This document shows, one piece after another, positions 11,805 to 27,398 of a DNA stretch of 64,000 nt. Made by a program: the position numbers and the translations under genes. Each line of letters begins with the position of its first letter. Positions within the stretch are counted from its first letter, which is position 1. Origin of the DNA: Escherichia coli (GTDB lineage Bacteria; Pseudomonadota; Gammaproteobacteria; Enterobacterales; Enterobacteriaceae); NCBI RefSeq assembly GCF_046105845.1, contig NZ_CP151004.1. The stretch is one strand, 5' to 3'. The notes under the pieces are model-generated. The model was not told the origin of the DNA. It did no database searches and worked only from the letters and a program-made list of their open reading frames with translations.

Positions 11805-12625
11805 AGATGAATAAATCCGTCGTAGACATGTACCGCCGGGCCAGTCATATATAACGGGTGACCCGGACCTTTCCAGGCGATATCAAGACGACCGCCAGGG
11901 AGTTCCACGCGTACTTCTTCGGCCAGCAAACCTTGCTGAATCCCTACCGCCACCGCCGCACACGCGCCGCTGCCGCAGGCCTGGGTTTCTCCTGCCCCAC
12001 GCTCATAAACGCGTAAACGAATATGCTCGCGCTTAACCACTTGCATAAAACCGATATTGGCGCGCTCCGGAAAACGCTCGTGGCTTTCCAGAACAGGACC
12101 AAGCGTTTCTACCGCCGCGGTATCGACATCATCGACCTGAATCACGCAATGCGGATTTCCCATCGACACCACGCCGCATAAGATTGTCTGCTCGGCGGCG
12201 CGCATAATATAGGTCTTTTCCGCTTTGTTAGCGCGAAACGGCACGGCGGAAGGTTCGAAGTTGGGCTCGCCCATGTTTACGCGAACCAGATCATCATCGG
12301 TGACGGTCAGAACCATCCGCCCGTTGGCGGTGCTGACGCGGATATCGCGCTTATTGGTCAGCCCTTTCAGGCGCACAAAACGGGCAAAGCAGCGTGCGCC
12401 GTTGCCGCACTGCGCCACTTCACTGCCATCAGCATTGAAAATGCGATAGTGAAAATCCAGTTCAGGATCATACGGTGGCTCAACCACCAGCAGTTGGTCA
12501 AACCCTACCCCCAGGTGCCGATCCGCCAGGCGACGAATCAGCTCCGGTGAAAAAAAGACATTCTGCGTTACCGCGTCGACGACCATAAAATCGTTGCCAA
12601 GGCCATGCATTTTCGAGAACTGCAT
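11801..12625 (-). CDS. dapF: Diaminopimelate epimerase
   Basis: ORF 11801..12628; second Met gives the 274-aa protein [18 protein letters not shown]... with both catalytic Cys motifs (GNGARC, GSGACA). Confidence 0.95.
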
Positions 12626-12661
12626 CATTTACTCCAATCACGCGGGTACAGAAACTGACTT

Positions 12662-12865
12662 TTAGTAATTCACCTGGGATGGACCATCGCCAGTGGCGCG
12701 GTCGTTTTTATCCGGCACTGTGGATTGCGTTTGCGTCTCTACCGATTTGGTCGGCGGCGGTGCGTTTTTATCTGCAGGCGGGAAATAGAGCGGACCTTTC
12801 AGACCGCAGCCCGTCAGGCTGAAGAGAGTAAGTAATACAGTGAGTGCCTTAAACACGTTTTTCAT
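12662..12865 (-). CDS. lptM: Small lipoprotein YifL (LptM)
   Basis: 67-aa ORF MKNVFKALTVLLTLFSLTGCG... with a lipobox (LTGC). Confidence 0.8.
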   Translation of the reverse strand: MKNVFKALTVLLTLFSLTGCGLKGPLYFPPADKNAPPPTKSVETQTQSTVPDKNDRATGDGPSQVNY

Positions 12866-13334
12866 TATGGATTGCCTGTAAAGTTCATCGCTTTCTGCTT
12901 TCTATCATCGCAGGAGAAGGCGTAAAAGCAAGCGTTTAGCGACTCTTTATGAAGTCTGAAAAATGAGGAAATACTGCGAGTATAACGCTTACACGTGGCG
13001 ATTTATGTTTTGCTGGTAGTTTCGTGATCGTCACCTCGCGCCAGGATGGCTTTATGCACTATCGCAATGTGATTTCTTTGTTGGCTTGTTCGTTGTTTTT
13101 ATCGTCGGCATGGGGATGTCGGCTTGATGAGCCTGAACATAATATTTACCAGAAACAGGGAAAAGGCGTGGTGTATTTGCACCCTTATGAAAAGACCAAT
13201 CTTTCGCTATATAGAGACATTATTATTCCGTTGACAGATGAATCATGCCGGAACGCAGCCGCAGAGGTGCAAACTTTGAAGCCCTGACCCCATGCCGCTA
13301 TACTGCCGCCATCACTTAAAAACAGGATACAACA

Positions 13335-13655
13335 ATGAACGACAGTGAATTTCATCGCCTGGCTGATCAACTCTGGCTGACCATTGAAGAGCGTCTGGAC
13401 GACTGGGATGGCGATAGCGATATCGACTGCGAAATCAACGGCGGTGTACTGACCATTACCTTTGAGAACGGTAGCAAAATCATTATCAACCGTCAGGAAC
13501 CGCTGCACCAGGTGTGGCTGGCAACCAAACAGGGCGGCTACCATTTTGATATGAAAGGCGATGAGTGGATTTGCGATCGTAGCGGCGAAACCTTCTGGGA
13601 TTTGCTGGAACAGGCGGCAACGCAGCAAGCGGGTGAAACAGTCAGTTTCCGCTAA
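13335..13655 (+). CDS. cyaY: Frataxin homolog CyaY (iron-sulfur cluster assembly)
   Basis: 106-aa [66 protein letters not shown]... Confidence 0.9.
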
Positions 13656-13694
13656 TATTACATGCCGGATAAGCTTCGCTTTCCGGCACGCTCA

Positions 13695-16241
13695 TCACGA
13701 AAAATACTGCTGTAATAGCGGCGTATCGTGATCCTGATTGGCAGGCGGCATGTTGCCAATCGATTTGGTGCGGAACGGAATCACCTGTTCACGACCATCA
13801 ACCTTCACAATCTGATAGAACTGCGGCAGGTTGAAGTTGATGAAGCTTGAGCCGTAGGTAAAACGGTCGTGCGATGACGAGTAGAAGCGACTGACGTCAC
13901 GCACCAGCTCCTCTTTGCTGCCTTCGCAGTGGTGATACACCTCAACCCGGTTGCTTTCGTCGAGAATGTAGATATTAAAGCCATTCTCGTCTTGCGTTTC
14001 TTCGAAGAAGAACTGGATGATCCCTTCGCTGGCAAAGCCGTCCACCACCGCCGGTAATTTGACGTGATTGGTTTCAACCTGCACTGACAGGCCGTGCAGT
14101 TTGTTATGCGAAATAGCGCCATAAAACTCGATGGCATTTTCTAGTTTCTGTACCGATACATTCAGGCGCTCGAAGAATAAGCCCCAGGTTTGACCAGAAA
14201 CGCGCAGCGCCTTGAAGCGCCCGGTTTCATGGCGGGTGCTGGAAAGACGCAGTTCAATGCACTCAGAAACCAGTTGCTGCACGCGAGTACGGATTAATCC
14301 GCGCAGATGCTGGCTGTAGCAGAAGACTTCCACGCTATCTGGCGGTGCGGCGTCCTGATGCATTTTACCGAGAATGGTTTTCAGGGCTTCGATCATCGAC
14401 TGCTCGCCGTTGAAGTGCAACGTACGCACTTCGTTCCACGAGTTGCGGTACAGCAGGTCCACGCTACCTACCAGGCAATTTTGATTCTCGCCAAAGCTGA
14501 AGACGTCCAGCTTACGGAAATCAAAATGCACCACCTGATTGCGGAACGCAGCTGTCGGGTCATATTCCAGGTTAACGATAATCGCCAGATGGCGAATTTC
14601 ACACGGGCTGTAGAGCGCTTTTGGCGTCGGTGCAGGCAGGCGCAGCGGGAAATGGTGTGACACATCGGCGACCATCTCCTGCAACTTAGGCAAATCGACA
14701 ATGCCGTTGCCTTTAATATACAAGCGGGTACGCGAGGTCAGCAGGCCGTTAAACCATGCCCACGCCACCAGTTTATTCAGGTAACGGTTATATTCCAGCG
14801 GCTGATGGCTGATGATCGACTCAATATTTGGCGCGCGGTTATACAGATACCAACCTGAACGGTTAGCCCGGCCCGGCGGCACATAAATAAAGGTCAGATT
14901 CGGTTCCGAGAGATCGGGTGAAATCTGCGGGTTTACCAGCGTCACTTTACCCGGCAATGCTTCAAACGCGGCATACAGCTTACGCGTCAGCACGCCGATA
15001 TCCTGCGGACTGGCGGAGACGCTAAGGTTATTGCGGCGCGCAAAGCGAATCAGATTACGGTAGCTCTGCATCATCGCGTCGAGCAACTCGTTGTGCGCCT
15101 CACGTACCTGATCAATCTTCCAGTTAGCGCGGTTATCGAGCATTGCCAGACGAGCATCGTCCCATTCCCACTCTTTCACTAACTGGGTTAGCACTTCACG
15201 ACGCCAGCCTACGCAGGCGCGTTCACGGCTGAGTTTTTCGCACACTTTTAAATAGAAGCAGCGGCGTACTAAATCCAGACGGGTGAAATCTTCAATCGCC
15301 GTCAGGTATTCAGTAACACGCTCCAGCATCATGCAGTAAGGATCGAGGCCAAACGACACAATCTCGCCGTCGTGCAAACGCTGTTTGATATCTTTCGCCA
15401 GCAGACGTGGGTTCGGGTATTCCCAGGAATAGGCTTCCAGCAGCAGTGTTTTCAGCACCGCTTTGTATGGGGAATCGATACTCTTGTAGAGCTGCCAAAG
15501 GCTGGCACCAAAGTACTCTTCAGCAGAAAGCGAGCTTAAGCCACCGAGATCCAGCCATTCATTTGGCGTCAGCACGCCCTGCGCGTAAAGCGTCATCACA
15601 TAGTCGTCGTAATGCTCTTCTTCGTCGCACGGCACCATATTCCACAGAATACGCTTACCAGCGAGACGCACGGCGGTACGGTAAAATTCGTCAAGCAGCA
15701 GTATATGCTGGGTGGAGCCACAATCTTCGCCCCCCAGGCTGCCGCTTTCATTATGACGGAAGCGGTTTTCATCAATCAGGAAGAAGCTAACTTCCACGCC
15801 CAGCGAGGCGGCCCAGCTTTCCAGCAGGCTGCATTTACGTTGTAGTAACTGGCGCTCTTCGCTATCAAGCCAGGATTGATGACAGACCCAGATATCCAGG
15901 TCAGAGGAACAACTTTGCCCTACGGACGAGGTGCTGCCCATGGTGTATACACCAGTAATTGGAAGCTCACCTTTCGGCGGATCCTGTACTGACATTCCAC
16001 GATACAGTTCAAGCTCGTTCAGGTAGTGGCGTTGAGTTTCATCAGGCGTGTAAAGGCAAATGCCTTTGGGAACGTTACCATCAAGGTAACCCGGCATTAG
16101 CGGATGGTGATAGTGCAACAATGTCGGCAGTAGACTGTAGACCTGTTGGAATGCAGGCCCCATAGCAGCAAGCGCGCGATCCACACGCAATTGATTTATG
16201 GCATCCAGTCTCTGTTTCAGAGTCTCAATATAGAGGTACAA
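13695..16241 (-). CDS. cyaA: Class I adenylate cyclase
   Basis: 848-aa ORF; the first codon on the minus strand is TTG (complement of 16239-16241), consistent with the known non-ATG start of cyaA. Confidence 0.95.
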
Positions 16242-16627
16242 GACGTATCGCCTGATTTGCTACCCGTCATGACTGTGATTCCGCCAACATCAACGGTAAC
16301 ACGCGGCATTCGGGATATTTCGTATGTCAAAGGTAACCGTTACCACTTTTCGCGCCTGGTTTTTTTAGTTTCACGACGAAAAAATGGTCTAAAACGTGAT
16401 CAATTTAACACCTTGCTGATTGACCGTAAAGAAAGATGCGCTACATACAAGTGTAGCACCGTTTATTCTCTGTAAATTCCTTATTACGACGGCGTGAAAC
16501 GCCTGTCAGGATCCACTGCCAGACCTCATTTTACGGTTTGCGCAGGCGTCTACGTTTCACCACAACACTGACATCGCTCTGGCAAGGATGTTAGGATGGA
16601 CCACGGATGATAATGACGGTAACAAGC

Positions 16628-17569
16628 ATGTTAGACAATGTTTTAAGAATTGCCACACGCCAAAGCCCACTTGCACTCTGGCAGGCACACTATGTCAAAG
16701 ACAAGTTGATGGCGAGCCATCCGGGCCTGGTCATTGAACTGGTACCGATGGTGACGCGCGGCGATGTGATTCTTGATACGCCGCTGGCGAAAGTAGGCGG
16801 AAAAGGCTTATTTGTAAAAGAGCTGGAAGTCGCGCTCCTCGAAAATCGCGCCGATATCGCCGTACATTCAATGAAAGATGTGCCGGTTGAATTCCCGCAA
16901 GGTCTGGGGCTGGTCACTATTTGCGAGCGTGAAGATCCTCGCGATGCCTTTGTGTCCAATAACTATGACAGTCTGGATGCGTTACCGGCAGGCAGTATCG
17001 TCGGGACGTCCAGTTTACGTCGCCAGTGCCAACTGGCTGAACGCCGCCCGGATCTGATTATCCGCTCCCTGCGCGGCAACGTCGGCACTCGCCTGAGCAA
17101 ACTGGATAACGGCGAATACGATGCCATCATTCTTGCCGTAGCCGGACTAAAACGTTTAGGTCTGGAGTCACGCATTCGCGCCGCGTTGCCACCCGAGATT
17201 TCTCTTCCGGCGGTAGGACAAGGTGCGGTGGGCATTGAATGCCGCCTTGATGATACACGCACTCGCGAGCTGCTTGCCGCGCTGAATCACCACGAAACTG
17301 CACTGCGCGTTACCGCAGAACGCGCCATGAATACCCGTCTCGAAGGCGGATGTCAGGTGCCAATTGGTAGCTACGCCGAGCTTATTGATGGCGAAATCTG
17401 GCTGCGTGCGCTGGTCGGCGCGCCGGACGGTTCGCAGATTATTCGCGGTGAACGCCGCGGTGCGCCGCAAGATGCCGAACAAATGGGGATTTCGCTGGCA
17501 GAAGAGCTACTGAATAACGGCGCGCGCGAGATCCTTGCTGAAGTCTATAACGGAGACGCCCCGGCATGA
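16628..17569 (+). CDS. hemC: Porphobilinogen deaminase (hydroxymethylbilane synthase)
   Basis: ORF 16607..17569; ATG at 16628 gives the 313-aa protein [20 protein letters not shown]... Confidence 0.95.
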
Positions 17570-18306
17570 GTATCCTGGTCACCCGCCCGTCTCCCGCTGG
17601 AGAAGAGTTAGTGAGCCGTCTGCGCACACTGGGGCAGGTGGCCTGGCATTTTCCGCTGATTGAGTTTTCTCCGGGTCGACAATTACCGCAACTTGCTGAT
17701 CAACTGGCAGCGCTGGGGGAGAGGGATCTGTTGTTTGCCCTCTCGCAACACGCGGTTGCTTTTGCCCAATCACAGCTGCATCAGCAAGATCGTAAATGGC
17801 CCCGACTACCTGATTATTTCGCCATTGGACGCACCACCGCACTGGCGCTACATACCGTAAGCGGACAGAAGATTCTCTACCCACAGGATCGGGAAATCAG
17901 CGAAGTCTTGCTACAATTACCTGAATTACAAAATATTGCGGGCAAACGTGCGCTGATATTACGTGGCAATGGCGGTCGTGAGCTAATTGGGGATACCCTG
18001 ACGGCGCGCGGTGCTGAGGTCACTTTTTGTGAATGTTATCAACGATGCGCAATCCATTACGATGGTGCAGAAGAAGCGATGCGCTGGCAATCCCGCGAGG
18101 TGACGACGGTCGTTGTTACCAGCGGTGAAATGTTGCAGCAACTCTGGTCGCTGATCCCACAATGGTATCGTGAGCACTGGTTACTACGCTGTCGACTATT
18201 GGTCGTCAGTGAGCGTTTGGCGAAACTCGCCCGGGAACTGGGCTGGCAAGACATTAAGGTCGCCGATAACGCTGACAACGATGCGCTTTTACGGGCATTA
18301 CAATAA
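17566..18306 (+). CDS. hemD: Uroporphyrinogen-III synthase
   Basis: 246-aa ORF overlapping the hemC stop by 4 nt (ATGA). Confidence 0.9.
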
Positions 18307-18327
18307 CTCTCATAACAGGAAGCCATA

Positions 18328-19527
18328 ATGACGGAACAAGAAAAAACCTCCGCCGTGGTTGAAGAGACCAGGGAGGCCGTGGACACCACGTCACAACCTG
18401 TCGCAACAGAAAAAAAGAGTAAGAACAATACCGCATTGATTCTCAGCGCGGTGGCTATCGCTATTGCTCTGGCGGCGGGCGTCGGTTTGTATGGCTGGGG
18501 TAAACAACAGGCCGTCAATCAGACCGCCACCAGCGATGCCCTGGCTAACCAACTTACGGCACTGCAAAAAGCCCAGGAGAGCCAAAAAGCCGAGCTGGAA
18601 GGCATTATCAAGCAACAAGCTGTACAGCTTGAGCAGGCGAATCGTCAGCAAGAAACGCTGGCAAAACAGCTGGATGAAGTCCAACAAAAGGTCGCGACTA
18701 TTTCCGGCAGCGATGCTAAAACCTGGCTGCTGGCTCAGGCTGATTTCCTGGTGAAACTCGCCGGACGGAAGCTGTGGAGCGATCAGGACGTCACGACCGC
18801 TGCAGCGTTGCTGAAAAGTGCAGACGCCAGCCTGGCGGATATGAATGACCCGAGTCTGATTACCGTTCGTCGGGCAATTACCGATGATATCGCCAGCCTT
18901 TCTGCGGTATCGCAGGTGGATTATGACGGCATCATCCTTAAGCTTAATCAGCTTTCAAATCAGGTAGATAACCTGCGTCTGGCTGATAATGACAGCGATG
19001 GTTCGCCGATGGATTCCGACGGTGAAGAGCTTTCCAGTTCCATCAGCGAATGGCGTATCAATCTGCAAAAAAGCTGGCAGAACTTTATGGACAACTTCAT
19101 TACGATTCGCCGTCGTGATGACACCGCCGTACCACTGTTAGCGCCGAATCAGGATATCTATCTGCGCGAAAATATTCGCTCCCGCCTGCTGGTCGCGGCA
19201 CAAGCCGTACCGCGTCATCAGGAAGAGACTTATCGCCAGGCGCTGGAGAATGTCTCCACTTGGGTACGTGCTTACTACGATACTGATGATGCCACCACCA
19301 AAGCGTTCCTCGACGAGGTGGACCAGTTAAGCCAGCAAAATATCTCGATGGATCTCCCGGAAACCCTGCAAAGCCAGGCGATGCTGGAAAAACTGATGCA
19401 GACTCGCGTGCGTAACCTGCTGGCACAACCGGCAGCGGGGACAACGGAAGCTAAACCTGCACCTGCACCTGCACCTGCACCTGCACCGCAAGCTGATACT
19501 CCGGCAGCCGCGCCGCAAGGAGAATAA
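18328..19527 (+). CDS. hemX: HemX (inner-membrane protein; uroporphyrinogen-III methyltransferase-like annotation)
   Basis: 399-aa ORF with a single N-terminal TM segment, coiled-coil region and a Pro-Ala-rich C-terminus. Confidence 0.9.
19456..19485 (+). repeat. Perfect tandem hexanucleotide repeat (CCTGCA)x5 inside hemX, encoding (Pro-Ala)5
   Basis: Read directly: aaa CCTGCA CCTGCA CCTGCA CCTGCA CCTGCA ccg caa. Confidence 0.9.
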
Positions 19528-19529
19528 CC

Positions 19530-20726
19530 ATGCTAAAAGTGTTATTGCTCTTTGTGTTGCTGATTGCGGGGATAGTGGTTGGCCCGATGATTGCCGGACA
19601 CCAGGGTTACGTGCTGATCCAGACCGACAACTACAATATTGAAACCAGCGTCACTGGCCTGGCGATTATTTTGATTCTGGCAATGGTAGTGCTGTTTGCC
19701 ATTGAGTGGCTACTGCGGCGGATCTTCCGCACAGGCGCACACACCCGTGGGTGGTTTGTCGGACGTAAGCGTCGCCGTGCGCGTAAGCAGACCGAACAGG
19801 CGCTGCTGAAACTAGCGGAAGGCGATTATCAGCAAGTTGAAAAGCTGATGGCGAAAAATGCCGATCACGCGGAACAACCGGTGGTGAACTATTTGCTGGC
19901 TGCCGAAGCCGCGCAACAACGTGGTGATGAAGCACGCGCCAACCAACATCTGGAACGCGCAGCGGAGCTGGCCGGCAATGACACCATTCCGGTAGAAATC
20001 ACCCGTGTACGTCTGCAACTGGCCCGTAATGAAAACCATGCTGCACGCCACGGCGTGGATAAGCTGCTGGAAGTTACGCCACGCCATCCAGAAGTATTAC
20101 GTCTGGCGGAACAGGCGTATATCCGCACAGGTGCATGGAGTTCGCTGCTGGATATCATCCCATCAATGGCGAAAGCCCATGTTGGTGATGAAGAACATCG
20201 TGCAATGCTGGAACAACAGGCATGGATTGGCCTGATGGATCAGGCGCGTGCCGATAACGGTAGCGAAGGTTTGCGTAACTGGTGGAAAAACCAAAGCCGG
20301 AAAACGCGTCATCAGGTGGCGTTGCAGGTGGCAATGGCGGAACATCTTATTGAATGTGACGATCATGATACTGCCCAGCAAATTATCATCGACGGCCTGA
20401 AACGCCAGTATGACGATCGCCTACTGCTGCCGATCCCGCGTCTGAAAACCAATAACCCGGAACAGCTGGAAAAAGTGCTGCGCCAACAGATCAAAAACGT
20501 GGGCGATCGCCCGCTGTTGTGGAGCACACTGGGTCAGTCGCTGATGAAGCACGGAGAATGGCAGGAAGCATCGCTCGCCTTCCGCGCAGCGCTGAAACAA
20601 CGTCCGGACGCCTACGATTACGCATGGCTTGCCGACGCGCTGGACAGACTGCACAAACCAGAAGAAGCTGCAGCGATGCGCCGCGACGGTTTGATGTTAA
20701 CGTTGCAGAACAACCCGCCACAGTAG
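19530..20726 (+). CDS. hemY: HemY (TPR-containing inner-membrane protein)
   Basis: 398-aa ORF starting 3 nt after the hemX stop; N-terminal TM helices. Confidence 0.9.
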   Translation: MLKVLLLFVLLIAGIVVGPMIAGHQGYVLIQTDNYNIETSVTGLAIILILAMVVLFAIEWLLRRIFRTGAHTRGWFVGRKRRRARKQTEQALLKLAEGDYQQVEKLMAKNADHAEQPVVNYLLAAEAAQQRGDEARANQHLERAAELAGNDTIPVEITRVRLQLARNENHAARHGVDKLLEVTPRHPEVLRLAEQAYIRTGAWSSLLDIIPSMAKAHVGDEEHRAMLEQQAWIGLMDQARADNGSEGLRNWWKNQSRKTRHQVALQVAMAEHLIECDDHDTAQQIIIDGLKRQYDDRLLLPIPRLKTNNPEQLEKVLRQQIKNVGDRPLLWSTLGQSLMKHGEWQEASLAFRAALKQRPDAYDYAWLADALDRLHKPEEAAAMRRDGLMLTLQNNPPQ

Positions 20727-20773
20727 TTCTTTCTCACCCGGAGGCAAGCACCTCCGGGACCTTTCTGATACAT

Positions 20774-20980
20774 AAAAAAACGCCTGCTCTTATTACGGAG
20801 CAGGCGTTAAAACAGGTCTGTATGACAACAAGTGGGTGCTTCACTCAACGTTGTGTCCATGGTGTCTGATGAGGCATAAGCGACATCTGTCAGTGGACGA
20901 TAAGCACCGTAAACGGCTCTGCGTCATTCCGGAGTTTATGAGGCACTAAGGCGAACATAAGAGATGGAATGAGCATCTAC
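20774..20980 (-). ncRNA. glmZ: Small regulatory RNA GlmZ (SraJ/RyiA)
   Basis: Minus-strand sequence GTAGATGCTCATTCCATCTCTTATGTTCGCC...CCTGCTCCGTAATAAGAGCAGGCGTTTTTTT ends in a canonical intrinsic terminator. glmZ is known to lie in the hemY-aslA intergenic region, antisense to both. Confidence 0.8.
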
Positions 20981-21404
20981 TCGTTTATTATGCCACAGAG
21001 AACCGGGAAATAACATCCCTTAACACTTGTTATGAGATAATTCTGTAATCCTCTTTGCTTCCTGAGTAATAACTTCCTGAGTGAATATTTCTCCTGCGCA
21101 CGATTCTACACATATATATAATGAATAATAAAAGTCATTCAATTAATAACATATATATTAATTGCCGTTAAAACTAAAAACAGCATCAATAATCAACGCG
21201 ATATAACATCACCGCCTTACATATCACCTGCGCCAGAGGTAGGATTGAAAACGCTCTCCTGATTTTCCAATTCATTTTCTGGATAAATAAATAATTTATT
21301 TTTATCACTATTATTTATGCAATCATCCTGTCAGGGAGAGGGATCTCAATTATCAATGCTTAATTACGTCAACATTTTGACGACATGAAACCGGAGCATT
21401 TTGC

Positions 21405-23060
21405 ATGGAATTTTCGTTTTCACCCAAACTTCTTGTTGTGGCTGTCGCCGCCGCTCTTCCACTCATGGCCAACGCAGCAGATACCCCGTCAACCGCCACC
21501 GCACGCAAAGGCTTTGCCGGATACGATCACCCAAACCAGTATCTGGTTAAACCGGCGACCACTATTGCCGACAACATGATGCCGGTGATGCAGCATCCTG
21601 CACAAGACAAAGAAACCCAGCAGAAGCTGGCAGAACTTGAGAAAAAAACCGGTAAGAAACCGAACGTGGTTGTTTTCTTGCTGGATGATGTGGGCTGGAT
21701 GGATGTTGGCTTTAACGGCGGCGGCGTGGCGGTGGGTAACCCTACACCAGATATCGACGCCGTTGCCAGCCAGGGGCTGATTTTAACTTCGGCGTATTCT
21801 CAACCGAGTTCTTCCCCAACCCGCGCCACGATTCTTACCGGGCAATACTCCATCCACCACGGCATTCTGATGCCGCCAATGTACGGGCAACCGGGCGGTC
21901 TGCAAGGGTTAACCACTCTGCCGCAGTTGCTGCACGATCAGGGCTACGTCACTCAGGCCATCGGGAAATGGCATATGGGGGAAAACAAAGAGTCGCAGCC
22001 GCAGAACGTTGGCTTTGATGATTTCCGCGGTTTTAACTCGGTATCCGATATGTATACCGAATGGCGTGATGTTCACGTCAACCCGGAAGTCGCCCTGAGC
22101 CCGGATCGTTCTGAATACATCCAAAAACTGCCGTTCAGCAAAGATGACGTTCATGCCGTGCGCGGCGGTGAACAGGAAGCCATTGCCGACATTACGCCGA
22201 AATATATGGAAGACCTGGATCAACGCTGGATGGAATATGGCGTTAAGTTCCTCGACAAGATGGCGAAGAGCGATAAGCCTTTCTTCCTCTACTACGGCAC
22301 TCGCGGCTGTCACTTCGATAACTACCCAAATGCGAAATATGCGGGTAGCTCTCCGGCGCGCACCTCTTACGGCGACTGCATGGTGGAGATGAACGATATC
22401 TTCGCCAATCTGTATAAAGCACTGGAGAAAAACGGTCAGCTTGATAACACGCTGATTGTGTTCACCTCTGATAACGGTCCGGAAGCCGAAGTTCCGCCGC
22501 ACGGTCGCACACCGTTCCGCGGTGCGAAAGGTTCTACATGGGAAGGCGGCGTTCGTGTGCCAACCTTCGTTTACTGGAAAGGCATGATCCAACCGCGTAA
22601 ATCTGACGGTATTGTCGATCTGGCGGATCTCTTCCCAACCGCGCTGGATCTGGCGGGGCATCCTGGAGCGAAAGTGGCGAATTTAGTGCCGAAAACCACC
22701 TTTATCGATGGTGTGGACCAGACATCCTTCTTCCTGGGAACAAATGGTCAGTCTAACCGTAAGGCCGAGCACTACTTCCTCAACGGCAAACTTTCTGCTG
22801 TGCGTATGGATGAGTTCAAGTATCACGTCCTGATCCAGCAACCGTACGCGTATACCCAGAGCGGGTATCAGGGTGGATTCACCGGTACAGTAATGCAAAC
22901 GGCGGGATCGTCGGTGTTTAACCTGTACACCGATCCGCAGGAAAGCGACTCCATCGGCGTGCGCCATATCCCAATGGGTGTACCGCTACAGACCGAAATG
23001 CATGCGTATATGGAGATCCTGAAAAAATATCCACCACGCGCGCAGATTAAATCTGATTAA
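21405..23060 (+). CDS. aslA: Arylsulfatase-family (putative sulfatase) periplasmic protein
   Basis: 551-aa ORF with signal peptide [24 protein letters not shown] and sulfatase-type motifs (LLDDVGWMD; [11 protein letters not shown] as the C/S-x-P-x-R FGly site with Ser). Confidence 0.9.
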
Positions 23061-23095
23061 GCCGGCGCTATCGCTACATCGGGCCACACTGACCT

Positions 23096-23125
23096 TGCCG
23101 GATGCGGCGTGAACGCCTTATCCGG
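23096..23125. repeat. REP (repetitive extragenic palindromic) element
   Basis: GCCGGATGCGGCGTGAACGCCTTATCCGGC matches the classic E. coli REP consensus; lies between the convergent aslA and aslB. Confidence 0.6.
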
Positions 23126-23136
23126 CAATCAACCGC

Positions 23137-23162
23137 AGGCGGCCACAAAATGGCCGCTTTTT
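23137..23162 (+). terminator. Intrinsic terminator downstream of aslA
   Basis: GGCGGCCA-CAAAA-TGGCCGC hairpin followed by TTTTTT. Confidence 0.55.
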
Positions 23163-24397
23163 TACTTATTCACCACCATCAAATGCGCCTGCATAATGTC
23201 GCTGGCCGGACGACCGTGCGCCAGCAAATCAGCCATTGCTTTAAGATATGGCGGTAGATGGCGGAAATAACGCTGATACCCGGCACACAAATAATTCAGC
23301 CCAGGTTTGCCGCTGGCATCGAGCATAAAGCGGTGTTTCGGACAGCCTCCCCAGCACGCTTTTAACACGTTGCAACTGCGACACTGCGCCGGTAACTGCT
23401 TAAATTTATCTTCACCAAACACCTGCTGTTGCGGGGAGTCTACCATTTCTGCAATTGTCTGCTGAAGCATATTCCCCAGTCGATATTGCGGATAAACATA
23501 GTGATCGCAGGCGTAAACGTCGCCGTTGTGTTCAACAATCACCGAGCGCCCACAGGTTGGCTGATGATGGCAAACCGCTCCTGGCGCACCGACAAAATTG
23601 GCAAACGCCCATTCGATATTCATCACGAAAATCTTGCCGACGTCGCGTTTGATCCAGTGGTCGAATATCGCCACCAAAAATTCACCGAACTCCTCGGGGT
23701 GTACCGACCATTCCGTCAGTTTGCCCTGAATATCGCCGGGAGCATGTAGCTTAAGTCCAGCATGAACAGCCGTTTCATCAGCCAGGCGTTCGACCACAGG
23801 AATAAACTGGATAAACTCAACGCCTGCATCACACAGAAAATCATAGATTTGCAAAGGTTGTAACGCACAGGTGCGATTAACGCAGACCAGCACGTTATAG
23901 TCGACATGATGTTTTTGCAGGAGCATCAGGGCACGCATCACCAGCTTATGCGTTGGTCTGCCGCCTTTGGTCACGCGATATTGATTGTGGATCTCAGCCG
24001 GACCATCCAGCGATAACCCAACAAGAAAATGATTTTCTGCCAGAAATGCACACCATTCGTCATCAAGCAGCACGCCATTAGTCTGGAAGCTGTTACTTAT
24101 CTTCCTGCCAGCACCATATTTCGCCTGTAGCGCCACGGCACGGCGGTAAAAATCCAGCCCGAGTAACGTTGGTTCGCCACCCTGCCAGGTAAAAGCCACT
24201 TCGTTTTGGGTTTCGCTGGCAGCGATATAGTGACGGACATACGCTTCCAGCGTGTCATCGTCCATATGCGTGACTGGCTTTTCGCTGTAAAGGGATTGTT
24301 TTTCGAGATAAAAACAGTAGTCACAGTTCAGATTACAATCGGAACCGCTCGGTTTCGCCATCACATGAAAAGCACGCGTTGGAACCTGTTGCAGCAT
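23162..24397 (-). CDS. aslB: Anaerobic sulfatase-maturating enzyme homolog (radical SAM)
   Basis: ORF 23162..24427; ATG at 24395-24397 gives the 411-aa protein MLQQVPTRAFHVMAKPSGSDCNLNCDYCFY... with the CxxxCxxC radical-SAM motif. Confidence 0.9.
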   Translation of the reverse strand: MLQQVPTRAFHVMAKPSGSDCNLNCDYCFYLEKQSLYSEKPVTHMDDDTLEAYVRHYIAASETQNEVAFTWQGGEPTLLGLDFYRRAVALQAKYGAGRKISNSFQTNGVLLDDEWCAFLAENHFLVGLSLDGPAEIHNQYRVTKGGRPTHKLVMRALMLLQKHHVDYNVLVCVNRTCALQPLQIYDFLCDAGVEFIQFIPVVERLADETAVHAGLKLHAPGDIQGKLTEWSVHPEEFGEFLVAIFDHWIKRDVGKIFVMNIEWAFANFVGAPGAVCHHQPTCGRSVIVEHNGDVYACDHYVYPQYRLGNMLQQTIAEMVDSPQQQVFGEDKFKQLPAQCRSCNVLKACWGGCPKHRFMLDASGKPGLNYLCAGYQRYFRHLPPYLKAMADLLAHGRPASDIMQAHLMVVNK

Positions 24398-24510
24398 GGT
24401 CGCTCCTTGCCTGAAGTCATCCTTCAATAAGTTAAGGGCGAAATCATACCGTGGCGCAATGAGTTATTACGGGCGTTTATTGCGAAGGGAAGTGACGAAA
24501 TGCACAGAAA

Positions 24511-24540
24511 ACAAAAAACCCCGCCGAAGCGGGGTTCAAA
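24511..24540 (-). terminator. Intrinsic terminator of the argX-hisR-leuT-proM tRNA operon
   Basis: Minus-strand hairpin CCCCGCTTCGGCGGGG followed by TTTTTTGTTTT, immediately 3' of proM. Confidence 0.65.
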
Positions 24541-24542
24541 AT

Positions 24543-24619
24543 TGGTCGGCGAGAGAGGATTCGAACCTCCGACCCACTGGTCCCAAACCAGTTGCGCTAC
24601 CAAGCTGCGCTACTCGCCG
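24543..24619 (-). tRNA. proM: tRNA-Pro
   Basis: Reverse complement reads CGGCGAGTAGCGCAGCTTGGTAGCGCAACTGGTTTGGGACCAGTGGGTCGGAGGTTCGAATCCTCTCTCGCCGACCA (77 nt, anticodon UGG, encoded CCA). Confidence 0.95.
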
Positions 24620-24661
24620 AAATACTGCTTTTTGAATTTTTAGTTCAATTCTTTAAAGTCG

Positions 24662-24748
24662 TGGTGCGAGGGGGGGGACTTGAACCCCCACGTCCGTAAG
24701 GACACTAACACCTGAAGCTAGCGCGTCTACCAATTCCGCCACCTTCGC
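24662..24748 (-). tRNA. leuT: tRNA-Leu
   Basis: Reverse complement reads GCGAAGGTGGCGGAATTGGTAGACGCGCTAGCTTCAGGTGTTAGTGTCCTTACGGACGTGGGGGTTCAAGTCCCCCCCCTCGCACCA (87 nt, anticodon CAG, long variable arm). Confidence 0.95.
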
Positions 24749-24768
24749 ATTGTCACAACTTCTAATAA

Positions 24769-24845
24769 TGGGGTGGCTAATGGGATTCGAACCCACGACA
24801 ACTGGAATCACAATCCAGGGCTCTACCAACTGAGCTATAGCCACC
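24769..24845 (-). tRNA. hisR: tRNA-His
   Basis: Reverse complement reads GGTGGCTATAGCTCAGTTGGTAGAGCCCTGGATTGTGATTCCAGTTGTCGTGGGTTCGAATCCCATTAGCCACCCCA (anticodon GUG, extra 5' G). Confidence 0.95.
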
Positions 24846-24902
24846 ACTACAAATCTTGTTACGCGGTATTACTACCACCGCAGCTCAAGCGCCGGGACTA
24901 AA

Positions 24903-24979
<77 letters not shown>

Positions 24980-25081
24980 TTAGCGCCGTTGCGGGGGTGG
25001 ATAATACGGACTTCCCACCCCTCTGTCTAGTCCCTTTTTAAATAAATTGCGCGTTTGGTTACGGTTTGTGCGTTTTGCTGC

Positions 25082-26467
25082 TTATTCCTCCAGTTTATGC
25101 GCTTTACCGTGGCGATTAAGCCCAAAAACTTTATAAATCGCCGTCACCGCCAGCATAAAGATGATGCCGACAAACAGCGACATACGCGTATCTTCATTAA
25201 AGTACATGCCGATCAAAACGCAAATCAGGAATGCCATTGTTACGTAGTTGGCCCACGGGAACAGGATTGAGCGGAACGGATGGCTGGCAATCGCCGCTTT
25301 ATGCGCACGACGAAAACGCAGCTGGCTTATCAATATCACAAACCATGGCACCATCCCCGGAAGCACGCTGGCACTGTAGACGTAGACAAACACACGCTGC
25401 GGATTGGGAATGACGTAGTTCAGGCATGAGCCAATTAACAGGATAGCAATAGATACTGCCACACCCGCAACCGGTACGCCGTGACGGGAAACTTTCGCCA
25501 TCGCCGCCGGTAACTGACGGTTTTTCGCCAGTGCGTAGAGCATACGTCCGCAACTGTACATGCCGCTGTTACAGCCAGAGAGCGCAGCCGTCAGCACCAC
25601 AAAGTTGATTATGCCCGCCGCTGCGGTAATGCCGATTTTGGCGAAAGTCAGTACGAACGGGCTACCGTTGCTGCCTATTTCATTCCACGGGAAGATAGTA
25701 ACGATAACGAAAATCGCGCCTACGTAGAAAATCAGGATCCTCCACAGCACTTTGCCTACTGCACTGCGCAGCGTCACCTGCGGATTCTTCGCTTCACCGG
25801 CCGTAATGCCAATCAGCTCCACGCCCTGGTAGGACGCCACCACAATACACAGAGCGGTCAGGAACCCTTTCCAGCCACCCGCAAAGAAACCGCCATGCTC
25901 TGTGAGATTGCTAAAACCAATCGACTGCCCGCCATTGCCAAAGCCAAAGAAAATCACGCCCAGGCCAATGACAATCATCACGATAATCGTGGTGACTTTG
26001 ATCATCGCGAACCAGAACTCGATTTCGCCGTACAACCTCACCGCAGCCAGATTCGCCAACGCCACCAGCGCCACCGCGATCAATGCGGGTATCCACTGCG
26101 CCATCTCCGGGAACCAGAACTGGACATAAACGCCAATGGCGGTGATTTCTGAGATCCCCACCGCCATCCACATAAACCAGTAAGACCAGGCGGTGAGATA
26201 GCCAAAAAACGGGCTCATATAACGATGCGCATAAACGGCGAACGAACCGGTAACCGGTTCGAGGAACAACATTTCGCCCATTGAACGCATGATGAAAAAG
26301 ACGAACAGCCCGGCGATGATATAGGCCAACAATACGGATGGCCCGGCCCATTTCAGGGTACTGGCGGCCCCCATAAACAGGCCGACGCCAATGGTGCCCC
26401 CCAGGGCGATGAGTTCGATATGTCGAGCTTCCAGCCCACGCTGTAGCTCTGGTTTGTTATCTGCCAT
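25082..26467 (-). CDS. yifK: APC-family amino-acid permease YifK
   Basis: 461-aa ORF, 12-TM amino-acid permease pattern; syntenic between wecG and the tRNA operon. Confidence 0.9.
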
Positions 26468-26602
26468 AAATCCTCGTGTTGTGTTTGCATGCTTTCCGGT
26501 GTTACCGGTTATCGTTATGGGTACATCGAGTGTTGCGAATGTTTTCGTAATTCAGGAGAAATGGCAAATAAAGCATTAAAAATTTGAATGCTTTGTGTAA
26601 TA

Positions 26603-26643
26603 AAAAAGCAGGAAGGCGACGAAGTGACCACTTCGTCGCTTTA
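26603..26643 (-). terminator. Putative terminator at the end of the wec operon (downstream of wecG)
   Basis: Inverted repeat GCGACGAAGTG / CACTTCGTCGC with a T-run on the minus strand a few bases downstream. Confidence 0.4.
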
Positions 26644-26657
26644 CAGAGAGAGGAAAA

Positions 26658-27398
26658 TCAGAGGTTGCCGGTGTAATGCCAGCGTAAATAACGCAGCAAA
26701 CGAAGCTGACGCTTAATGCGGCTCGGCTGCGAAAGCAGGCGGTAGAGCCACTCCAGCCCCAGCGTTTGCCAGATTTTCGGTGCACGTTTTACGTGACCGG
26801 TGAAAACATCATAAGTCCCGCCAACGCCCATATACAGCGCATCTGGATGCACCAGACGGCAGTCGCGCATGAAGATCTCCTGCTTTGGCGATCCCATCGC
26901 AACGGTGACGATTTGCGCTCCGCTGGCATGAATGCGTTCAAACAGCATCTGACGCTGCTCGGGTTTAAAATAACCATCCTGACTGCCAACGATATTCACA
27001 TTCCACTGGTTGCGTAGTTTAGCTTCAGTTTGCGCCAGCACTTCAGGTTTACCGCCCACAAGAAATACCGGTGTCCCTTCTTTGCCTGCGCGCGCCATCA
27101 GCTCTTCCCAGAGATCGGCCCCTGCAACGCGGGAAACCTGCGCCTGCGGGTACTTTTTACGTACTGAACGTACAACGCTGATGCCATCCGCATATTTAAA
27201 TTCGGCAGCGTTAATTAACTCCCGGACCTCGGCGTTATCTTCAATGGTCAGCATTTTTTCGGCATTAATGGCAACCAGCGTTCCCTGCTTAAGCTGCCCG
27301 TCAGCGAACAGATAATCGAGGGCGTGCTGCATATCACGCCAACCAATCAACTGTAAGCCACGCAGCGTATAGGTCGGTGCCGTGGTGTTGTTATTCAT
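26658..27398 (-). CDS. wecG: UDP-N-acetyl-D-mannosaminuronic acid transferase (ECA synthesis)
   Basis: 246-aa ORF; last gene of the wec cluster. Confidence 0.9.

What the first reader, a model, noticed from the sequence alone, without database searches (positions are those of the whole stretch)
19441..19500. Perfect (CCTGCA)x5 coding microsatellite in hemX giving a (Pro-Ala)n tract
Five perfect tandem hexamers encode [10 protein letters not shown] near the HemX C-terminus. HemX here is 399 aa; from memory the K-12 protein is 393 aa. If so the difference is in-frame repeat-number variation, consistent with slipped-strand mispairing. Such tracts are rare in E. coli housekeeping genes and make a convenient strain-typing marker; the PA linker probably acts as a flexible periplasmic spacer.
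Basis: partly seen in the sequence, partly recalled or inferred. Interest (0 to 1): 0.3.

Follow-up and report, generated by a model that had tools for sequence, protein, structure and literature searches.

The report
Known hemX hexamer typing repeat (CVN014)
The five-copy CCTGCA repeat near the end of hemX is real and varies from 2 to 18 copies between E. coli strains, but it is the long-known typing marker CVN014, and its length changes look harmless.

Summary
A perfect (CCTGCA)x5 array lies at 19456-19485. It is in frame in the 399-aa hemX ORF (18328-19527) and encodes [10 protein letters not shown] (residues 377-386).

It is not new. The published primers of the generic E. coli MLVA locus CVN014 match at 19432-19451 and 19549-19572 with no mismatch. 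The amplicon is 141 bp, which is allele 5 by the published formula. The literature calls CVN014 the most variable locus of that scheme.

In 98 systematically sampled complete genomes, copy number ran from 2 to 18 (Nei diversity about 0.89). Four O157:H7 genomes carry 5, 9, 10 and 13 copies. The 16 other alleles I read keep the flanks (a few SNPs, one 9-bp deletion). Fifteen stay in frame; one has a 1-bp flank deletion.

The best explanation is replication slippage in an Ala/Pro-rich, poorly conserved, apparently disordered C-terminal tail. The tract is not a linker between domains: only 13 residues follow it. The last codons are conserved, probably because they hold the hemY ribosome-binding site.

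Verdict: already known, low interest.

The parts
19456..19485 (+). Perfect (CCTGCA)x5 array, in frame in hemX, encoding [10 protein letters not shown] (HemX residues 377-386). This is the repeat of MLVA locus CVN014.
18328..19527 (+). hemX ORF, 399 aa. It has an N-terminal transmembrane segment and long helices. The Pfam HemX domain PF04375 covers residues 130-363, followed by an Ala/Pro-rich tail at 368-399.
19432..19451 (+). Binding site of the published CVN014 primer GCAGCRGGGACAACGGAAGC, with 0 mismatches.
19549..19572 (-). Binding site of the published CVN014 primer TCCCCGCAATCAGCAAMACAAAGA, with 0 mismatches. The amplicon 19432-19572 is 141 bp, so (141-111)/6 gives allele 5.
19486..19527 (+). 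Unique 3' flank of the array: [13 protein letters not shown] plus the stop codon. The final CAAGGAGAATAA carries the hemY Shine-Dalgarno sequence. The QGE codons are invariant across 31 aligned Enterobacteriaceae HemX proteins.
19530..20726 (+). hemY. It starts 2 nt after the hemX stop codon. The in-frame repeat changes leave it untouched.

Best explanation
This is an in-frame coding microsatellite in the last 8% of hemX, and it is the known MLVA locus CVN014.

How it changes (inferred): copy number changes by whole 6-bp units through slipped-strand mispairing during replication. Occasional multi-unit duplications also occur.

Why it is tolerated (inferred): the unit is two codons, so every change only lengthens or shortens a Pro-Ala run. 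That run sits in a poorly conserved, apparently disordered C-terminal tail, which single-TM topology places in the periplasm. The HemX domain, the reading frame, the stop codon and the hemY ribosome-binding site just downstream are all preserved. The variation is therefore effectively neutral and accumulates quickly, which is why the locus is useful for strain typing.

What is shown directly: the repeat itself, the identity of the locus, the allelic series, and the poor conservation of the tail. Slippage as the mechanism, neutrality and the periplasmic location are inferences.
For: Locus identity: both CVN014 primers printed in PMC8143711 match at 0 mismatches. The 141-bp amplicon gives allele 5 by the published formula.

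Allelic series: I read 16 other alleles base by base. They carry 2, 3, 4, 6, 7, 8, 9, 10, 13, 15 and 18 units between flanks that are the same apart from a few SNPs and one 9-bp deletion. Fifteen are in frame; one has a 1-bp deletion in the flank. Most arrays are perfect.

Frequency: 98 systematically sampled complete genomes gave 14 length classes and Nei D of about 0.89.

Fast change within a clone: four O157:H7 genomes carry 5, 9, 10 and 13 copies. The literature reports 2-11 copies within ST131 and calls the locus 'the most variable locus'. Every K-12 lab strain sampled has 2 copies, which fits short arrays being stable.

DNA-level repeat: every unit uses the same CCT GCA codons. Klebsiella, Kluyvera and Pluralibacter have PA runs with mixed codons and no array.

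Multi-unit events: the 18-unit allele carries two CTTGCA variant units five units apart.

A tolerant tail: HemX is near-invariant up to Q367/P368. After that it varies in sequence and length in the 80 Enterobacteriaceae loci fetched (about 77 tails read). The model has no secondary structure after residue 366, and pLDDT is about 30.

No predicted effect on hemY: the predicted pairing of the SD and AUG is identical for 0 to 18 copies.

Possible aid to slippage: the single-stranded array can form a TGCA:TGCA hairpin that is more stable than shuffled sequence.
Against: No mutation-accumulation or fitness data were available, so both slippage and neutrality are inferred.

The sampled distribution is not flat. 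Copies 2 and 5-7 are common and more than 15 is rare. That could reflect a weak length constraint or simply mutational dynamics and clonal sampling bias.

The structure model is weak overall (mean pLDDT 54, 31-sequence alignment), so low confidence in the tail is only modest evidence for disorder.

HemX function is unknown, so a role for tail length cannot be excluded.
Confidence: 0.85

Rival explanations
1. The Pro-Ala run is a functional, length-tuned periplasmic spacer. On this reading, copy number sets how far the conserved C-terminal end of HemX reaches, and selection maintains different lengths in different lineages.
For: Pro-Ala runs are stiff, extended segments in other envelope proteins (my own knowledge: the OmpA hinge and TonB). 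An Ala/Pro-rich tail of some kind is present in all the HemX tails read (about 77) from the 80 Enterobacteriaceae loci fetched. Its last residues, APQGE, are nearly invariant. HemX is regarded as a distant Mic60 homologue, a protein that makes inter-membrane contacts. Very long alleles are rare in the sample.
Against: Only 13 residues follow the run, and no domain follows it. The conservation of QGE is explained more simply by the overlapping hemY Shine-Dalgarno sequence, CAAGGAGAATAA. Copy number differs between members of one young clone: O157:H7 has 5, 9, 10 and 13 copies, and ST131 has 2-11. Salmonella and many other genera have no run at all.
Confidence: 0.08
2. The array is a contingency (phase-variation) switch, or it regulates hemY expression through changes in mRNA structure or spacing.
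For: The array is a hypermutable repeat inside an operon, 45 nt upstream of the hemY start codon. The hemY SD is predicted to be base-paired, so hemY translation may depend on ribosomes finishing hemX.
Against: The unit is 6 nt, so no frameshift or on/off switching is possible. All 16 other alleles read differ from the window's array by whole units. The single frameshifted record has a 1-bp deletion outside the array. Predicted pairing of the SD and AUG does not change from 0 to 18 copies. HemX is not surface exposed (inferred from its single-TM, N-in topology).
Confidence: 0.03
3. The length differences are assembly or sequencing artefacts at a low-complexity site rather than real alleles.
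For: Repeats are error-prone in long-read assemblies. One record carries a 1-bp deletion beside the array that RefSeq flags as a frameshift.
Against: Differences are always whole hexamers in finished genomes made on many platforms. The same allele range was measured independently by PCR fragment sizing in several laboratories. All K-12 lab strains agree on 2 copies.
Confidence: 0.01

Closest known systems
CVN014, a 6-bp VNTR locus of the generic E. coli MLVA scheme (Lindstedt et al. 2007; GECM-7 and GECM-10)
   Same: It is the same locus. Both published primers match here exactly. The repeat unit is 6 bp, the offset is 111 bp, and this window is allele 5. The published allele ranges of 1-15 overlap the 2-18 I found in complete genomes.
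   Different: Nothing differs. In the open-access papers I could search, none holds both 'hemX' and 'VNTR' for E. coli. The papers I read on CVN014 did not name the gene in the passages I saw. The original 2007 paper is not held in the library, so I could not check whether it names hemX.
STTR5 of Salmonella Typhimurium and O157-19 of E. coli O157, 6-bp coding VNTRs in yohM/rcnA
   Same: Both are in-frame hexamer arrays inside a chromosomal housekeeping gene, are tolerated as a variable low-complexity segment, and are used for MLVA (for STTR5 in YohM). A primer I recalled as O157-19 maps to rcnA in 326 genomes.
   Different: They lie in a different gene and encode a different peptide. STTR5 sits between two domains of YohM, whereas the hemX array sits in a terminal tail. 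The assignment of that primer to O157-19 rests on my memory.
Ala-Pro hinges and linkers of envelope and multidomain proteins (OmpA hinge, lipoyl-domain linkers of E2 AceF)
   Same: The composition is the same: alternating Ala and Pro, which is expected to be extended and unstructured (my own knowledge).
   Different: Those segments connect two folded domains. Here nothing folded follows, and the tract is a perfect DNA-level microsatellite rather than a mixed-codon peptide motif.
Phase-variable contingency loci (for example the tetranucleotide or pentanucleotide repeats of Haemophilus and Neisseria)
   Same: Both are hypermutable tandem repeats that presumably change by slippage.
   Different: The unit length is a multiple of three, so there is no frameshift switching. 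The product is not a surface antigen.

Membership tests
MLVA locus CVN014 | Both published primers flank the repeat | tested here: met
   The matches at 19432-19451 (+) and 19549-19572 (-) have 0 mismatches. No other primer pair of the scheme matches the window.
MLVA locus CVN014 | 6-bp unit, with amplicon size = 111 + 6n | tested here: met
   The amplicon is 141 bp, which equals 111 + 6x5.
MLVA locus CVN014 | Copy number is polymorphic between strains | tested here: met
   Copy number ranges from 2 to 18 in 98 sampled complete genomes, and 16 alleles were read directly.
Coding microsatellite that mutates by slipped-strand mispairing | Head-to-tail identical units, with alleles differing by whole units between shared flanks | tested here: met
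Coding microsatellite that mutates by slipped-strand mispairing | Directly observed gain or loss of units during replication | not testable with these tools
   The evidence is only indirect: different alleles within O157:H7 and within ST131.
Phase-variable contingency locus | Repeat changes shift the reading frame or the promoter spacing and so switch expression | tested here: not met
   The unit is 6 nt. In all 16 other alleles read, the array differs from the window's by whole units, so the array never shifts the frame. Predicted pairing of the hemY SD is unchanged for 0-18 copies.
HemX family (Pfam PF04375; NCBIfam NF008173) | Significant match to the family profile | tested here: met
   PF04375 matches at E = 3.8e-108 over residues 130-363. 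NF008173 scores 719 bits against a cut-off of 313.
Uroporphyrinogen-III C-methyltransferase, the product name used in the annotation | A recognisable methyltransferase domain | tested here: not met
   The Pfam scan at E <= 0.01 found only HemX plus three sub-threshold membrane or coiled-coil-type hits, and no methylase family. A review describes HemX as poorly characterised and only 'suggested' to be a methylase.
Interdomain Pro-Ala linker or spacer | A folded domain on both sides of the tract | tested here: not met
   Thirteen residues follow the tract. There is no secondary structure after residue 366, and pLDDT is about 30. The tail is not conserved between species.

The most novel reading that the evidence does not exclude
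HemX tail length is not neutral. Under this reading, the Pro-Ala run sets the reach of the C-terminal end of a Mic60-like inner-membrane protein across the periplasm, and lineages drift or are selected towards different lengths with small effects on the envelope or on haem metabolism.
Probability: 0.05. Interest if true: 0.4.

Novelty: already known. Interest (0 to 1): 0.08.

Why it matters
It matters little beyond bookkeeping. The repeat is a standard strain-typing locus that has been in use since 2007.

Three modest points may be useful:
- CVN014 lies in the dispensable-looking C-terminal tail of HemX, which explains why such a hypervariable locus is tolerated in a core operon.
- Copy number can be read straight from genome assemblies: 2 in K-12, 6 in BL21, 8 in Nissle 1917 and SE15, and 5-13 in O157:H7.
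- Some strains carry changes in a primer site that could weaken or abolish the PCR.

Tried and rejected
1. I first took the window to be O157:H7, because a 181-bp query matched strain PV15-279 at 100%. Longer queries showed this was wrong. Only 3 genomes reach 99% over 301 bp, and the best match over 15 kb is 98.9% with a mosaic pattern.

2. I suspected the locus might be O157-19/TR7 of the O157 schemes. The primer I remembered is absent from the window and maps to rcnA, so I rejected that idea.

3. Literature searches for hemX with VNTR, for uroporphyrinogen with MLVA, and for the motif CCTGCA with MLVA found nothing relevant to E. coli. The link came only from matching primer sequences.

4. 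The original 2007 paper is not held in the library.

5. An ungapped comparison of the window with the best genome was meaningless because of compensating indels. I redid it with blastn.

6. I considered counting every allele across all 5,426 genomes with allele-specific queries. The identity bands in the tool output cannot separate SNPs from unit indels, so I used two systematic samples instead.

7. The AlphaFold model built from 31 close homologues was poor (pLDDT 54). I used it only for the tail and did not run a fold search.

Full report
**The observation**

The sequence at 19456-19485 is a perfect (CCTGCA)x5 array. The perfect period-6 run extends over 19455-19487, or 5.5 copies. The array starts in phase 0 of the ORF 18328-19527 (+ strand, 399 aa). 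It encodes [10 protein letters not shown] at residues 377-386 and is followed by [13 protein letters not shown] and the stop codon. hemY starts 2 nt after that stop, at 19530.

None of 100 dinucleotide-preserving shuffles of the window produced a match. This is the only perfect repeat of period 2-12 with four or more copies in the 64 kb. No ORF of 100 aa or more crosses the array on the minus strand.

**What the locus is**

A paper that uses the generic E. coli MLVA scheme prints the primers and the sizing formula (PMC8143711). The two CVN014 primers match the window with no mismatch. GCAGCRGGGACAACGGAAGC matches at 19432-19451 (+), and TCCCCGCAATCAGCAAMACAAAGA matches at 19549-19572 (-). The amplicon is 141 bp, and the published formula (size - 111)/6 gives allele 5. 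No other primer pair of the scheme matches the window. The hemX hexamer array is therefore CVN014, which has been a typing locus since the 2007 scheme.

Published work describes it as follows:
- It is the most polymorphic locus in one study, with 9 alleles, a range of 4-15 and Nei D of 0.83 (PMC3519732).
- It shows the largest variation in a Swedish ESBL collection (PMC5217547).
- It varies from 2 to 11 copies within ST131 alone (PMC3407997).

**Direct check in genomes**

A 181-bp query and a 301-bp query across the array each matched 5,425 of 5,426 complete E. coli genomes, always under hemX/hemY. I listed rows at even steps down the ranking, which gave 98 usable genomes, and converted match span to copy number.

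| Copies | 2 | 3 | 4 | 5 | 6 | 7 | 8 | 9 | 10 | 12 | 13 | 14 | 15 | 18 |
|---|---|---|---|---|---|---|---|---|---|---|---|---|---|---|
| Genomes | 16 | 4 | 8 | 17 | 14 | 11 | 5 | 7 | 8 | 1 | 3 | 2 | 1 | 1 |

Nei diversity is about 0.89. The collection is biased towards lab strains and epidemic clones, so these are rough frequencies.

I fetched 16 alleles and read them base by base:
- They carry 2, 3, 4, 6, 7, 8, 9, 10, 13, 15 and 18 units between flanks that are the same apart from a few SNPs and one 9-bp deletion.
- Fifteen are in frame. Most arrays are perfect.
- One 4-unit allele has its last unit changed to CCTACA.
- The 18-unit allele has two CTTGCA units five units apart, which is the footprint of a multi-unit duplication.
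- The K-12-type hemX CDS is 1182 bp, or 393 aa, with 2 units. Apart from the 6-aa difference, it differs from this window's HemX at 3 residues.

Within-lineage behaviour points to fast change. All sampled K-12 lab strains have 2 copies (MG1655, JM109, NEB10-beta and others). Four O157:H7 genomes have 5, 9, 10 and 13 copies.

**Where the tract sits in the protein**

Pfam finds only the HemX domain, PF04375, at residues 130-363. The NCBIfam equivalog NF008173 covers the whole protein. The protein has a hydrophobic segment near residues 37-57, preceded by KKSK, and long helices follow it. By the positive-inside rule the bulk of the protein, including the tail, should be periplasmic. This topology is an inference and was not tested.

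I fetched HemX loci from 80 Enterobacteriaceae species, read the tails of about 77 of them, and aligned 31:
- The protein is near-invariant up to ...RVRNLLAQP (residue 368).
- It then becomes an Ala/Pro/Thr/Glu-rich tail that differs in sequence and length between species.
- It ends in a nearly invariant APQGE.

The last codons, CAA GGA GAA TAA, contain the hemY Shine-Dalgarno sequence. That overlap is the simplest reason for their conservation.

An AlphaFold model built on this alignment is weak overall (mean pLDDT 54). It places the last helix at 349-366 and leaves 364-399 as coil with pLDDT about 30. With only 13 residues after the Pro-Ala run and nothing folded downstream, the run is part of a terminal tail, not a spacer between domains.

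**Origin of the array**

Codon-level comparison gives this picture:
- E. coli E69 and several Citrobacter species carry a one- to two-unit proto-repeat, GCA CCT GCA CC(G/A).
- The array is expanded in E. coli, in E. albertii (6 units) and in Escherichia sp. E1V33 (7 units). Escherichia sp. MOD1-EC7003 has 2 units.
- It is also expanded in one Citrobacter group (NCU1, Awk4 and R56, about 10-15 units).
- Raoultella ornithinolytica has 4 units at a different position in the tail.
- Salmonella has none.
- Klebsiella, Kluyvera and Pluralibacter have short PA runs written in mixed codons.

So the Ala/Pro-rich composition of the tail is general, while the microsatellite is a lineage-specific, DNA-level expansion.

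**Mechanism**

The allelic series differs only by whole units between shared flanks. The units are identical at the DNA level, and copy number varies within young clones. All three features are expected from replication slippage. This is an inference; no mutation experiment was possible.

As single-stranded DNA, the array can fold into an imperfect hairpin of TGCA:TGCA stems. For 10 copies of the top strand the energy is -11.3 kcal/mol, against -3.7 +/- 1.8 for shuffles. Such a hairpin could stabilise slipped intermediates.

Because the unit is two codons, the frame, the stop codon and the hemY start region are untouched. In mRNA folds of alleles with 0 to 18 copies, the predicted pairing of the hemY SD (fully paired) and of the AUG did not change. 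A phase-variation or hemY-regulation role is therefore unlikely.

**Comparison with known systems**

The locus is CVN014 itself. It resembles other in-frame hexamer VNTRs in housekeeping genes, such as STTR5 in Salmonella YohM. It also resembles the rcnA repeat of E. coli O157. A primer I recalled as O157-19 maps to rcnA and is absent from this window, so the two loci are distinct. The hemX array is not a contingency locus, and it is not an interdomain Ala-Pro linker of the OmpA or AceF kind.

**Side findings on HemX**

The product name 'uroporphyrinogen-III C-methyltransferase' carried by RefSeq is not backed by any methylase domain. A review calls HemX poorly characterised. A preprint treats it as a distant Mic60 homologue that lacks the mitofilin domain.

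**Verdict**

The 'spacer' idea is not supported. The feature is already known and in routine use. Interest is low.

Noticed in passing
window 18328-19527 (hemX): RefSeq and NCBIfam NF008173 name HemX 'uroporphyrinogen-III C-methyltransferase'. Pfam finds only the HemX domain and no methylase family. A review calls the protein poorly characterised, and a preprint treats it as a distant Mic60 homologue. The product name looks like a legacy label.
   Followed up: partly
window 19513-19532: The hemY Shine-Dalgarno sequence (AAGGAG) lies inside the last hemX codons (QGE and the stop). These codons are invariant in 31 aligned Enterobacteriaceae. The SD is predicted to be fully base-paired in every allele (P unpaired 0.00), which suggests that hemY translation is coupled to hemX termination.
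   Followed up: partly
window 12000-27000: No complete E. coli genome of 5,426 is near-identical over this 15 kb. The best is 98.9% (O169:H41 strain Res13-Lact-PER13-34). 500-bp blocks range from 97.0% to 100%, a mosaic pattern. The source strain is not closely represented in the collection, or it may be a Shigella.
   Followed up: partly
L004 (BL21) and L011 (strain N96), CVN014 primer site equivalent to window 19432-19451: BL21 has a SNP inside the primer site (GGGGGCAACGG, Thr to Ala). Strain N96 has a 9-bp deletion that removes GTT, together with other changes, so the primer site is lost. Both could weaken or abolish CVN014 PCR.
   Followed up: partly
L094 (strain FXCREC043), just 3' of the array: A 1-bp deletion (CCGCAAGCTG to CCGCAGCTG) frameshifts the last 12 hemX codons. 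RefSeq flags the gene as a pseudogene. It could be a real mutation or a long-read assembly error.
   Followed up: no
H100 (strain P276M, NZ_CP044293.1): The match covers only 79% of the 301-bp query, in 2 pieces. The downstream gene is annotated as a HemY N-terminal domain-containing protein, which suggests that hemY is disrupted in this strain.
   Followed up: no
H9 (NZ_CM135829.1, labelled DH5alpha): This 4.83-Mb record carries 5 copies and has the same identity to the query as UTI89 (97.8%). Every other K-12 derivative sampled has 2 copies. The strain label looks doubtful.
   Followed up: no
window 50721-50738 and 56104-56140: Two other small tandem repeats are present: a perfect (TCGCTT)x3, and 2.5 copies of a 15-bp unit, TAATCACCACCACGC. 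Neither was examined.
   Followed up: no
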